IMG/VR virus record: IMGVR_UViG_3300021171_000008
Span: 14,423 to 78,422 of that record
Length of the DNA: 64,000 nt
From: a virus
Strand: one strand, 5' to 3'
The position numbers and the translations under genes were made by a program. Positions 48,237 through 49,335 of this stretch are shown here, one piece after another. The notes beneath the pieces were generated by a model. The model saw nothing but the letters and a program-made list of their open reading frames with translations, did not search any database and had not been told where the DNA came from. Within the stretch, counting starts at the first letter, position 1; each line of letters starts with the position of its first letter.

Positions 48237-48356
48237 GGGGCGGGACCCACGGCCCCGCCCCCTGCCTGCCTCGCCGCGCCTTGCCTTGCGCCGCCCTGCC
48301 ACGCCTCGCCAAGCCTTGCCTTGACAGGCCTTGCCTCGCCTCGGTGCATTTGCACC
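48237..48356 (-). ncRNA. Stand-alone GGY-NN guide B (14 pentamers at 48271-48340) with 5' and 3' hairpins
   Basis: Minus strand: GGTGCAAATGCACC-GA-[GGCGA GGCAA GGCCT GTCAA GGCAA GGCTT GGCGA GGCGT GGCAG GGCGG CGCAA GGCAA GGCGC GGCGA]-GGCA GGCA-G-GGGGCGGGGCCGTGGGTCCCGCCCC. Confidence 0.85.
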
Positions 48357-48391
48357 AACTGCAAGATAAGGGCCCTTTCGCGCAATTGCAA
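48350..48391 (-). promoter_or_regulatory. Sigma70-like promoter for guide B with an overlapping operator
   Basis: TTGCAA (48391-48386)-N17-TATCTT (48368-48363); TTGCA-N5-TGCAA at 48350-48364. Confidence 0.65.
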
Positions 48392-48444
48392 TCGGCGCTA
48401 GGAATTGCCGCGTTGAAAGGCTGGACCCCAAAGAGGGTTCCGCC

Positions 48445-49335
48445 ATGGGCGAACACAGTCAAAAGAGCTTCACGGCCGACAAACTCCGAAAGTTTGAGGT
48501 CTCGGGCAAAAACGGCGGCTCCGGAAACGGAGACAAGGGCGCTTCGGCAGACGATTTCGGGCGGAAAGCCGCCCGCACGAGCGATTCTTCCGCGTTCGCC
48601 GCTGGCGGCGCCGCGAAGGCGCCCTCGCTTGGTCGCGCCGGCCGCGCGAAAGGCGGACGCATCAATCGCCCTGCGGTGGCTTCGGCTGACTTTAAGCCGT
48701 CGAAGACCGGCGGCAATTATCCCGGCAAGATTCCAGACAACGAGGGCGGCAAGGCCCGCAATCTTTCTATGCTCACCGATGGCGGTCCGCGATCCTATGG
48801 CGATCGGCCGTTGATCATTGGCCATGGCGACCAAAACGCCATGCGCGCTAGAGGCGGCAAGGTTTCGCGCGCCAGGGGCGGCCGAACCGAAATTAGTGAT
48901 CTGAGGGACGACAAGACTTCGCTCGCCAGAGGCGGGCGGGTCGGCCGCGCGCACGGCGGCAAGGCCAAGGGCGCGAAGGGCAAAACCGTCGTCAATGTCA
49001 TCGTGGGCGGCAAAGGCGATCAGCAGCAGCCGCCTCCGACGCCTCCGATCATGCCGCACCCGATGGTGCCTCCTCCACCTCCTCCGCCGCCGCCGCAGGG
49101 GATGCCTCCTGGTGGGATGCCGCCGGGGATGCCTCCTGGCGCTGGTATGCCGCCTCCGCCGCCGCCGAGACCGCCTATGCCGCCTCCGGGTGGCATGCCG
49201 CCGGGAATGCCTCCTCCGGGCATGGGCCGCGCGCACGGCGGGCGGATCTCCGAGAAGTTCGGCGCGGGCTCCGGCCGAGGCCGGATGGAGAAGACCAAGC
49301 GCCAGGGCCACGGGAAGGTGAAGCTAGCCGAATGA
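48445..49335 (+). CDS. Basic Gly-rich/Pro-rich head-region protein with repeated A(R/K/H)GG motifs
   Basis: RAKGG, RARGG x2, LARGG, RAHGG x2; polyproline tract. Confidence 0.65.
   Translation: MGEHSQKSFTADKLRKFEVSGKNGGSGNGDKGASADDFGRKAARTSDSSAFAAGGAAKAPSLGRAGRAKGGRINRPAVASADFKPSKTGGNYPGKIPDNEGGKARNLSMLTDGGPRSYGDRPLIIGHGDQNAMRARGGKVSRARGGRTEISDLRDDKTSLARGGRVGRAHGGKAKGAKGKTVVNVIVGGKGDQQQPPPTPPIMPHPMVPPPPPPPPPQGMPPGGMPPGMPPGAGMPPPPPPRPPMPPPGGMPPGMPPPGMGRAHGGRISEKFGAGSGRGRMEKTKRQGHGKVKLAE

What the first reader, a model, noticed from the sequence alone, without database searches (positions are those of the whole stretch)
48237..48519. Orphan guide B sits back-to-back with the gene it decodes to (10/12 match)
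Seen: 10 kb from the effector, a minus-strand mini-transcript has a TTGCAA-N17-TATCTT promoter, a 5' hairpin, 14 pentamers, GGCA-GGCA and a 3' hairpin. Its NN string is GA AA CT AA AA TT GA GT AG GG AA AA GC GA, i.e. D-K-L-K-K-F-E-V-S-G-K-N for the first 12. The divergent neighbour gene 48445 at 48478-48513 reads GAC AAA CTC CGA AAG TTT GAG GTC TCG GGC AAA AAC = DKLRKFEVSGKN. Ten of 12 dinucleotides are identical; the mismatches are R/K and a synonymous Ser TCG vs AGN. My rough chance estimate is ~1e-5 per genome. Inference: a trans-acting guide targets the 5' end of a head-operon gene in rival phages, where a roadblock could silence downstream head genes. Tight linkage to the resistant self allele would keep guide and immunity together through recombination, like homing-endonuclease logic.
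Basis: partly seen in the sequence, partly recalled or inferred. Interest (0 to 1): 0.92.

Follow-up and report, generated by a model that had tools for sequence, protein, structure and literature searches.

The report
Phage VIPR guide beside its immune allele
This is a guide RNA gene of the recently described phage VIPR system (an RNA-guided DNA silencer that skips every third base). It matches a structural gene of closely related rival phages perfectly, but mismatches the carrier phage's own copy of that gene, which lies right next to the guide.

Summary
Window 48268-48342 (minus strand) holds 15 NNGGC pentamers between two hairpins. Units 2-13 match codon positions 1-2 of the neighbouring gene at 48478-48513, in frame, 10 of 12. 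The next best match in the window is 6 of 12.

The kind of system is already published. It is a vrRNA of a VIPR system (bioRxiv 10.64898/2026.04.26.720920, .720927 and 2026.10.15.759431). In VIPR, GGY/NN repeat RNAs guide a Vipr RAMP filament to dsDNA with a one-base (wobble) skip and silence competing phages. The Vipr gene lies 10 kb away at 36877-37689. Its family profile hits the solved SUSP1 Vipr protein (E 1.2e-7), and its model has a Cas7-like fold.

Six related contigs (five distinct alleles) lack the cassette. All of them carry AAR where this phage has CGA. One complete 78-kb relative also carries AGT, which gives 12/12. That relative has neither vipr nor arrays.

What seems new is the layout. 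The guide is a ~123-bp insertion next to the phage's own escape allele. Five dispersed arrays in four phages show the same adjacency, with Ser, Arg or Leu codon-box swaps among the differences from self.

Transcription of the array itself and silencing are not shown. All earlier scan notes concern this same genome.

The parts
48363..48391 (-). Promoter-like element TTGCAA-N17-TATCTT. It is native to the intergenic region and drives leftward transcription into the array.
   Evidence: Read from the sequence. It scores 8/12 to consensus and fails the strict scan. Relatives without the array conserve it as TTGCAA-N17-TATATT.
48348..48366 (.). Palindrome of the type TTGCA-N5-TGCAA, a recurrent regulatory motif of this phage group.
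   Evidence: Eight copies in this genome, 7 and 5 in two relatives. One copy abuts each of the two dispersed arrays.
48343..48356 (-). 5' hairpin that abuts the first repeat.
   Evidence: RNA fold. It is formed by the inserted bases plus the duplicated ATTTGCA.
48268..48342 (-). vrRNA repeat tract of 15 NNGGC units. The NN string is GA GA AA CT AA AA TT GA GT AG GG AA AA GC GA.
   Evidence: Tandem Repeats Finder reports period 5 with 16 copies.
48237..48267 (-). 3' end of the vrRNA: an AGGC tetramer, then an 11-bp G+C hairpin with no U-run.
   Evidence: The main array and array C end in the same way, with AGGC followed by a hairpin.
48232..48354 (.). The ~123-bp insertion that makes up the cassette. 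It is flanked by a 7-bp direct repeat ATTTGCA at 48225-48231 and 48348-48354.
   Evidence: Alignment with five relatives that lack it.
48031..48213 (-). 60-aa ORF with an RBS, downstream of the array on the same strand. It is probably co-transcribed with the array.
   Evidence: A homologue without the array is present in L006. Contigs from three soil metatranscriptome runs cover 47964-48259.
48478..48513 (+). The phage's own near-cognate site: codons 12-23 of the 296-aa gene (DKLRKFEVSGKN), matching 10/12. The mismatches are CGA against guide AA and TCG against guide AG.
48445..49335 (+). 296-aa gene of unknown function, the first of a long rightward structural and morphogenesis cluster. Its allele in relatives is the predicted target.
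36877..37689 (+). vipr gene (RAMP effector, 270 aa).
   Evidence: Family profile hits PDB 36pp 'SUSP1 Vipr protein' at E 1.2e-7. AlphaFold2 model has pLDDT 85.6. Foldseek top hits are Cmr4/Csm3.
37691..38182 (+). vap-like accessory gene (163 aa). No nuclease domain was found.
38183..38492 (+). Main staggered vrRNA array: four guides separated by AGGC tetramers, followed by a terminator.
   Evidence: Staggered arrays are described in 10.64898/2026.04.26.720920, fig. S18 legend.

Best explanation
The feature is a dispersed vrRNA gene of the phage's own VIPR system. The genome is a 78.4-kb soil phage.

**Shown by sequence**
- A ~123-bp cassette (5' hairpin, 15 NNGGC units, AGGC, G+C hairpin) is inserted in the 5' leader of a small leftward gene. 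It lies downstream of that gene's native promoter.
- The genome encodes a Vipr RAMP protein 10 kb away, next to a four-guide staggered array.
- Under the published one-base-skip rule, guide B matches the 5' coding region of the first gene of the rightward structural cluster in close relatives better than in its own genome. The scores are 12/15 and 11/15 dinucleotides in relatives, against 10/15 in self.
- The same holds for three other guides of this phage. They are directed at terminase large subunit, the serine recombinase and a virion gene.

**Inferred from the VIPR papers**
- Vipr protomers polymerise on the GGC motifs, one per repeat.
- They present the NN pairs, invade the matching dsDNA and form a gapped R-loop that blocks transcription.
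- In a co-infecting or resident kin phage, this would shut off the structural operon from its first gene.

**Inferred here**
- The phage's own allele escapes through two complete two-base codon changes: Lys AAR to Arg CGA, and a Ser codon in the TCN box rather than the AGY box.
- The guide sits beside this escape allele because recombination among mosaic kin phages would otherwise separate the guide from its immunity and cause self-silencing.
For: **Anatomy and the 10/12 in-frame match:**

**Shuffle controls:** 2/2000 shuffles reach the self score, and 0/2000 reach the scores against relatives G001 and G002.

**Published rule and mechanism:**

**Vipr membership**
- Family profile hit to PDB 36pp at E 1.2e-7, covering the thumb Arg and the G-loop.
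- A confident model whose best structural matches are all type III Cas7-family RAMPs.
- 58 of 80 homologous viral loci carry GGY/NN arrays beside the gene.

**Target alleles**
- An exact 12-unit pattern scan of IMG/VR returned one contig. It is a 100%-complete 78,058-bp relative carrying the AAA and AGT codons.
- That relative and a second one (91% complete) have no vipr homologue and no arrays.
- Base-level identity of guide B is 26/30 and 25/30 for these relatives, against 23/30 for self. This straddles the 0.8 cut-off used in 10.64898/2026.10.15.759431.

**Other guides, self then G001 then G002**
- A1: 8, 10, 11 of 13.
- A4: 7, 9, 9 of 9.
- C: 8 then 10 of 14 (self, G001); G002's best (8/14) is at an unrelated site.

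**Insertion status**
- Cassette B is an insertion with a 7-bp direct repeat.
- Cassette C is also an insertion relative to G001.

**Adjacency recurs**
- Dispersed arrays in G006, G014 and L035 have their best in-frame near-self match about 50-360 nt away. Leu or Arg box swaps are among the mismatches.
- Guides in vipr-adjacent arrays show no excess of near-self hits: 4 observed against 3.2 expected.

**Ecology and RNA**
- The stretch recurs in at least 20 soil metagenome runs.
- One DNA run also holds a variant that lacks 47944-48374.
- Three metatranscriptome runs have contigs over the 60-aa ORF, and one of them reaches into the 3' hairpin.
Against: - No RNA contig covers the repeat tract itself. 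Contigs in an RNA library do not prove transcription.
- The promoter is weak by consensus and there is no terminator. Processing of a discrete vrRNA is assumed, not seen.
- Over all 15 units, the best natural target only just reaches the published 80% dinucleotide cut-off (12/15). The commoner TCN alleles fall below it (11/15).
- Mismatch tolerance is unknown, so self at 10/15 might not be fully immune, or 11/15 might not be targeted.
- In this Vipr sub-clade, Gly, Ser or Ala replaces the G-loop Trp that stacks on G2 in SUSP1 Vipr. Activity is therefore assumed.
- Only one exact target was found in IMG/VR and none in the metagenome contig collection.
- The three adjacency cases in other phages are individually weak by score (p about 0.03-0.08). 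They gain weight only from position, reading frame and the box swaps.
- No exact rival targets were found for array C or for the G006 guide.
- The host is unknown.
Confidence: 0.8

Rival explanations
1. Self-regulation. The guide is tuned to bind the phage's own gene weakly (10/12 core). It would time or dampen the phage's own structural operon. The better match in relatives would be incidental.
For: - The guide is immediately adjacent to, and divergent from, the gene it resembles.
- Self identity of 23/30 bases is not far below the heuristic 0.8 cut-off.
- Mismatch tolerance of VIPR has not been mapped in the papers read.
Against: - All four guides with a recognisable site match relatives better than self.
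- The own mismatches are complete two-base codon changes, including synonymous Ser box swaps. This looks like selection for mismatch rather than for partial pairing.
- The published surveys found no self hits at 80% or more and report lower self-match as avoidance of autoimmunity.
- All six related contigs lack the cassette yet keep the same gene and promoter region.
Confidence: 0.1
2. Decoy or 'gun for hire' solo vrRNA. The cassette would serve mainly to load and redirect the Vipr of other phages, as satellite solo vrRNAs do, rather than to arm the phage's own Vipr.
For: - Solo vrRNAs that redirect foreign Vipr are described in 10.64898/2026.10.15.759431.
- The cassette is self-contained, looks mobile and has a 7-bp direct repeat.
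Against: - The genome has its own vipr-vap operon.
- Cassette B shares the repeat consensus, the AGGC punctuation and the hairpin ending of that operon's array.
- Its best target is an essential-looking structural operon of kin phages that lack vipr. It is not a multi-copy host decoy.
Confidence: 0.06
3. Chance resemblance. A pentanucleotide microsatellite or a non-functional remnant of a mobile element happens to resemble the neighbouring gene.
For: - The NN composition (GA, AA, GG, GC) is rich in common codon starts, so background scores are high. Shuffled guides reach a mean best of 7.2/15.
- Two of the four main-array guides have no match anywhere.
Against: - 2/2000 shuffles reach the self score and 0/2000 reach the scores against relatives.
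- The match is in frame, about 136 nt away, and exact over 12 units in a natural relative.
- The same architecture recurs beside vipr in 58 of 80 loci.
Confidence: 0.02

Closest known systems
VIPR systems (Vipr RAMP protein plus vrRNA; type II of Escherichia phage SUSP1 and a Pseudomonas fulva prophage). bioRxiv 10.64898/2026.04.26.720920 and 10.64898/2026.04.26.720927.
   Same: - GGY/NN pentamer repeats, 15 units here against the published range of 9-16.
- NN pairs read the target with a one-base skip aligned to the codon wobble position.
- A small RAMP effector with a conserved thumb Arg and G-loop Asp/Arg.
- A two-gene vipr-vap operon next to an array.
- The system is phage-encoded and its targets are competing phages.
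- Self-match lies below the 80% cut-off.
   Different: - The Vipr is distant: sequence similarity is detectable only by profile, and only over about 50 residues.
- The G-loop Trp is replaced by Gly.
- No pseudoknot tail was recognised. Instead there is AGGC punctuation followed by a G+C hairpin.
- The targets are core genes of near-identical kin phages (terminase, recombinase, structural genes), not a satellite or prophage regulators.
- This guide lies 10 kb from the vipr locus.
Staggered vrRNA arrays (fig. S18 of 10.64898/2026.04.26.720920).
   Same: The main array at 38183-38455 changes register by one base at each AGGC. This is as described for vrRNAs derived from positions that overlap by 1 nt. 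Guide B ends with the same AGGC.
   Different: Only the figure legend could be read. Processing sites in this phage are not known.
Solo or orphan vrRNAs of F5 satellites and of VIPR-null SUSP1-like phages (bioRxiv 10.64898/2026.10.15.759431).
   Same: - A vrRNA that stands alone, away from any vipr gene.
- It has a lower match to self than to rivals, which avoids autoimmunity.
   Different: - The published solos sit in elements without vipr, at the site of a vipr-vap deletion or in satellites. They target vipr genes, other vrRNAs, satellites or host repeats.
- Here the carrier is VIPR-positive and vipr is 10 kb away, inside their 20-kb limit for calling an array 'solo'.
- The cassette lies beside the carrier's own allele of its target.
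Class 1 CRISPR effectors (Cas7 backbone: Csm3, Cmr4, Cascade) and CRISPRi.
   Same: - RAMP fold; the best structural matches are Cmr4 and Csm3.
- A protein filament forms on the guide, with periodic base flipping.
- Repression works by roadblock, without a nuclease.
   Different: - There are no repeat-spacer array, no cas genes and no adaptation module.
- Five guide bases correspond to three target bases, rather than 6 to 6.
Marker exclusion by homing endonucleases of T-even phages, and toxin-antidote (greenbeard) modules. This is an analogy from general knowledge and was not tested here.
   Same: A weapon aimed at the rival's allele of a shared gene is encoded right beside the carrier's resistant allele. 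Recombination therefore transfers both together.
   Different: - No nuclease was found.
- The weapon's protein component is encoded elsewhere in the genome.
- Any drive-like spread is hypothetical.

Membership tests
VIPR system | A Vipr protein (minimal RAMP: RRM core, G-loop, thumb) is encoded by the same element. | tested here: met
   - ORF 36877-37689. A profile of 56 homologues hits PDB 36pp 'SUSP1 Vipr protein' at E 1.2e-7.
- AlphaFold2 model: pLDDT 85.6, pTM 0.82.
- The Foldseek PDB hits listed are almost all CRISPR RAMP subunits, led by Cmr4/Csm3 and Cas7-11, with probability 0.9-1.0 and TM 0.35-0.48.
VIPR system | Residues that hold the GGY motif in SUSP1 Vipr: thumb R138 and G-loop D177-W178-R179. 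| tested here: inconclusive
   The thumb Arg, the Asp and the Arg align and are conserved across the family. The Trp is Gly in this protein and Gly, Ser or Ala in its closest relatives, alongside a G-loop insertion. H17 was not aligned.
VIPR system | The vrRNA consists of 9-16 tandem pentamers with conserved GGY and hypervariable NN. | tested here: met
   15 units at 48268-48342 (minus strand). Thirteen have a perfect GGC and the NN pairs vary.
VIPR system | A conserved structured 3' tail caps the repeat tract. | tested here: inconclusive
   All three array loci end with AGGC followed by a G+C hairpin. No pseudoknot of the SUSP1 kind was looked for or seen, and the tails are not alike in sequence.
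VIPR system | The NN string matches a natural target by the 1-nt-skip rule at 80% or more, wobble-aligned, with self below 80%. | tested here: met
   - Relative G001: 12/15 dinucleotides (80%) and 26/30 bases.
- Self: 10/15 and 23/30.
- Both matches are in frame, with the skipped base at the wobble position.
VIPR system | The vrRNA is expressed and bound by Vipr. | not testable with these tools
   Contigs from three soil metatranscriptome runs cover 47964-48259: the downstream ORF and, in one run, part of the 3' hairpin. None covers the repeat tract, and contigs in RNA libraries do not prove transcription.
VIPR system | Binding to the target DNA represses transcription. | not testable with these tools
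   This follows only by homology with the SUSP1 and P. fulva systems.
Solo vrRNA in the sense of 10.64898/2026.10.15.759431 | [quoted passage not shown] | tested here: not met
   vipr lies about 10.6 kb away on the same genome. The definition is quoted, section 20. 'Dispersed vrRNA of a VIPR-positive phage' is the more accurate name.
CRISPR array | Direct repeats of 20-50 nt separated by unique spacers, with cas genes. | tested here: not met
   The repeat period is 5 nt. No cas genes were seen among the ORFs examined. Rfam finds no CRISPR repeat family.
Stand-alone sRNA gene with an intrinsic terminator | A G+C hairpin followed by a U-run. | tested here: not met
   The scan finds no terminator in 47950-48520. 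The hairpin is followed directly by the RBS and start of the 60-aa ORF.

The most novel reading that the evidence does not exclude
Dispersed vrRNA cassettes may be small mobile 'weapon plus immunity' modules. Each guide would be kept within a few hundred bases of the carrier's own escape allele of the gene it attacks in kin phages. Recombination would then move guide and immunity together, and could spread them through a phage population in a drive-like way. Because the VIPR code ignores wobble bases, self-immunity would lean on the few synonymous changes that alter codon positions 1-2: box swaps of the six-codon amino acids (Ser TCN/AGY, Arg CGN/AGR, Leu CTN/TTR).
Probability: 0.4. Interest if true: 0.75.

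Novelty: new variant of a known kind. Interest (0 to 1): 0.6.

Why it matters
VIPR was described only in 2026. So far it has been studied mainly in one E. coli phage-satellite pair and one Pseudomonas prophage clade.

This soil phage shows the system in a different role. It is aimed at close relatives and at their terminase, recombinase and structural genes.

It also shows, at single-codon resolution, how the carrier avoids silencing itself.
- The natural allele pairs (CGA against AAA, TCG against AGT) are ready-made test cases for VIPR mismatch tolerance.
- The published papers argue that wobble skipping closes off synonymous escape. Box swaps of six-codon amino acids are the exception, and they appear here at every guide with a recognisable self site.
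- If the guide-beside-immune-allele layout is general, it points to a linkage constraint, or even a drive-like spread, in RNA-guided conflict between phages.

On the practical side, such arrays are currently annotated as protein-coding genes in deposited phage genomes, for example in cluster F mycobacteriophages.

Tried and rejected
- **Phage GenBank collection.** A blastn search with 47600-49400 found nothing. A tblastn search with Vipr found nothing.
- **Single-sequence AlphaFold2 of Vipr.** It failed at pLDDT 31.6 and was redone with an alignment.
- **Looking for other carriers of cassette B.** Exact scans for the core of array B found none in IMG/VR or in the metagenome contig collection. 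Co-inheritance of guide and allele in other carriers could therefore not be tested.
- **Looking for exact targets.**
  - The exact 12-unit target of guide B was absent from the metagenome contig collection.
  - Exact targets of array C and of the G006 dispersed guide were absent from IMG/VR.
- **Host assignment.** The 296-aa target protein had no relative in the genome collection of 185,579 species, so no host could be named.
- **The look-up of encoding contigs.** The closest Vipr homologues (84% and 75% identical) could not be examined in their contigs.
- **vap function.** There was no significant PDB or Pfam match. Only weak winged-helix-like structural neighbours were found.
- **Rejected ideas.**
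  - The array is translated: the frames give unrelated low-complexity peptides.
  - The array is an antisense regulator of the neighbour's mRNA: the NN string has the same sense as the mRNA.
  - The array is a rut site or an iteron.
  - The guide was copied from the phage's own ancestral allele: TCN is the state in five of the six related contigs, so AGT is more likely the derived state of the targeted lineage.
- **RNA runs.** No contig covers the repeat tract itself. This is not evidence of absence.
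Full report
**1. What is in the sequence**

The genome that holds the window is a 78,422-bp virus record with 63% G+C. The window is bases 14423-78422 of it.

On the minus strand between 48391 and 48237 lie, in order:
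- TTGCAA, 17 nt, TATCTT;
- a 14-nt hairpin at 48356-48343;
- fifteen pentamers in one register at 48342-48268, thirteen of them perfect NNGGC;
- an AGGC tetramer at 48267-48264;
- an 11-bp G+C hairpin at 48261-48237.

Directly after the hairpin come an RBS and a 60-aa ORF on the same strand, at 48213-48031. It counted 14 units rather than 15. Its promoter is too weak for the consensus scan. There is no terminator, so a closed mini-transcript is not established.

**2. The match**

I read the NN pairs as codon positions 1-2. Units 2-13 match 48478-48513 at 10 of 12, in the frame of ORF 48445-49335 (DKLRKFEVSGKN). Nothing else in the window exceeds 6 of 12.

The NN pairs are rich in common codon starts, so the background is high. 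Shuffled guides reach a mean best of 7.2 of 15 over the whole genome. Even so, only 2 of 2000 shuffles reach the observed 10 of 15. The hit also lies 136 nt from the array.

**3. It is one of several arrays**

A scan for NNGGY runs finds three loci in the genome:
- the main array at window 38183-38455 (plus strand), which has four guides separated by AGGC tetramers and ends in a terminator;
- array B, the subject of this finding;
- array C, on the minus strand 5.5 kb before the window.

**4. The kind of system is already published**

A full-text search found three 2026 preprints on VIPR, Viral Interference Programmable Repeat.
- vrRNAs are 9-16 GGY/NN pentamers.
- One Vipr RAMP protomer binds each repeat and sequesters the GGY motif.
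- The NN pairs base-pair with dsDNA while every third target base is skipped. The skipped base is usually the codon wobble position.
- The complex forms an R-loop triplex and represses transcription without cutting.
- Natural targets are competing phages and satellites.
- Targets were called at 80% or more NN match, and no self hits reached that level.
- 'Staggered' arrays with one-base overlaps are described. Solo vrRNAs in satellites and in VIPR-null phages are described as well.

**5. Membership tested here**

- The ORF at 36877-37689 has 363 homologues, all unnamed.
- A profile of 56 of them hits PDB 36pp, 'SUSP1 Vipr protein', at E 1.2e-7. The aligned stretch runs from the thumb Arg through the G-loop.
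- With the alignment, AlphaFold2 gives pLDDT 85.6.
- The best PDB structural matches are nearly all CRISPR RAMP subunits, led by Cmr4 and Csm3.
- Of 80 homologous loci fetched from IMG/VR, 58 carry GGY/NN arrays next to the gene.
- One departure: in this sub-clade the G-loop Trp that stacks on G2 in SUSP1 Vipr is Gly, Ser or Ala.
- The downstream 163-aa gene is a viral protein family with no recognisable nuclease domain.

**6.

Five IMG/VR contigs carry the N-terminus of a homologue of the 296-aa gene (L003 and L004 are identical at this site), and all five lack any array in the 3 kb upstream. All five have AAR where this phage has CGA, and all keep TCN at the Ser codon. That gives 11/12.

An exact scan of IMG/VR for the 12-unit pattern returned a single contig.
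- It is a 78,058-bp, 100%-complete relative, referred to here as G001.
- Its homologue reads AAA at the Lys codon and AGT at the Ser codon, which gives 12/12.
- This relative, and a second one that is 91% complete (G002), have no vipr homologue and no arrays.

Over all 15 units the scores are as follows.

| Genome | Dinucleotides matched | Bases matched |
|---|---|---|
| Self | 10/15 | 23/30 |
| G001 | 12/15 | 26/30 |
| G002 | 11/15 | 25/30 |

No shuffle out of 2000 reaches the scores against the relatives. The relatives fall at or above the published cut-offs and self falls below them.

The phage's own Arg codon is two base changes away from AAR. It shares no base with the guide's AA, which is what selection for mismatch would produce.

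**7. The same holds for the other guides**

| Guide | Predicted target | Self | G001 | G002 |
|---|---|---|---|---|
| A1 | terminase large subunit | 8/13 | 10/13 | 11/13 |
| A4 | N-terminus of the serine recombinase | 7/9 | 9/9 | 9/9 |
| C | a virion gene | 8/14 | 10/14 | no homologous site (best 8/14 elsewhere) |

Guides A2 and A3 have no match in these genomes. Each own site differs from its guide at a Ser codon by a TCN/AGY box swap. The system is thus aimed at close kin, and the carrier's alleles are escape variants.

**8. How the cassette sits in the genome**

An alignment with the relatives shows that about 123 bp (48232-48354) are an insertion.
- The insertion lies between the native leftward promoter and the RBS of the small gene.
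- It is flanked by a 7-bp direct repeat, ATTTGCA.

The insertion point is inside a palindrome of the type TTGCA-N5-TGCAA. That palindrome occurs eight times in this genome and also abuts array C. Array C is likewise an insertion of about 190 bp relative to G001.

**9. Adjacency is a pattern, not a single case**

In this phage, the best self-match of B, C and A4 lies about 136, 145 and 610 nt from the respective array.

I then looked at other phages with this Vipr clade. Dispersed arrays away from vipr were found in three records:
- G006, at 38.2 kb;
- G014, at 41.1 kb;
- L035, at 6136-6200.

In each, the best match of the guide (for G014, of its first guide) is in frame in a neighbouring ORF about 50-360 nt away. 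The mismatches include Leu CTN/TTR or Arg CGN/AGR box swaps. Individually these scores are weak, at p about 0.03-0.08. The repeated coincidence of position, frame and mismatch type is what carries the weight.

By contrast, 107 guides in or near vipr-adjacent arrays show no excess of near-self hits within their loci: 4 observed against 3.2 expected.

All seven matches discussed here have the same sense as the mRNA. As an inference only, this would keep the guides from being titrated by transcripts, because VIPR can also pair with RNA.

**10. Ecology and RNA**

- The 1-kb stretch occurs in at least 20 soil metagenome runs from 2018 to 2022.
- One DNA run also contains a variant in which 47944-48374 is replaced by 145 other bases. 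Carriers and non-carriers of the cassette therefore co-occur.
- Three soil metatranscriptome runs have identical contigs over 47964-48259, covering the 60-aa ORF and, in one run, part of the 3' hairpin. None covers the repeat tract. This is compatible with leftward transcription through the cassette but does not prove it.

**11. Verdict**

- The system is not new. This is a new, distant member, with staggered arrays and a variant G-loop.
- What I could not find in the three preprints is:
  - targeting of kin phages' core genes;
  - dispersed cassettes in a VIPR-positive phage placed beside the carrier's own escape allele;
  - box swaps of six-codon amino acids as the recurrent synonymous escape.
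- These points are supported by sequence comparison only.
- Expression of the guide, its loading on Vipr, silencing and mismatch tolerance all remain to be tested.

Noticed in passing
L001:2420-2790 (Mycobacterium phage Donkeykong NC_051648.1, about 36.88-37.25 kb), and 26 other cluster F-like mycobacteriophage records: The CDS annotated as hypothetical protein gp48 is a long staggered NNGGC/AGGC vrRNA-type array. The next gene, gp49 (248 aa), is a Vipr homologue with a GDWRP G-loop (hhalign probability 98.6%, E 7e-16). These phages therefore appear to carry an unannotated VIPR locus between the immunity region and the excisionase gene.
   Followed up: partly
window 28984-29045 (-): A type II hammerhead ribozyme (Rfam RF02276, 39.3 bits against a gathering score of 37) lies in a short gap between two small minus-strand genes. 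There is no GGY/NN array beside it, although ribozyme-interspersed vrRNA arrays are described for other VIPR types.
   Followed up: partly
window 48348-48366, 39332-39346, and six other sites in the genome (genome 8928, 18003, 20714, 28472, 31712, 44767): A recurrent palindrome TTGCA-N5-TGCAA occurs 8 times in this genome, 7 times in G001 and 5 times in G002. It lies in intergenic regions and looks like the operator or promoter element of a phage regulator. Both dispersed vrRNA cassettes abut a copy.
   Followed up: partly
window 36877-37689, residue 188: This Vipr and its closest relatives have Gly, Ser or Ala where most of the family, and SUSP1 Vipr (W178), have the Trp that stacks on G2 of the GGY motif. 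The change comes with a Gly-rich insertion in the G-loop.
   Followed up: partly
window 47944-48374: One soil DNA run holds, besides the cassette-bearing form, a contig in which this stretch (60-aa gene plus array B) is replaced by 145 unrelated bases. This resembles relative L002. The region is a mosaic hot spot: the relatives carry three different leftward genes here.
   Followed up: no
window 35852-35925 (+): A tRNA gene (Rfam, 60.8 bits) lies about 1 kb upstream of the vipr operon.
   Followed up: no
L022, L035 and other IMG/VR loci of the same Vipr clade: Some relatives carry very large arrays (up to 28 in-register guide runs called in L035) on both sides of vipr. The clade also occurs on contigs of Alphaproteobacteria (Methylobacterium, Microvirga, Ponticaulis, Pararhodobacter), Actinomycetota, Planctomycetota and others.
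   Followed up: partly
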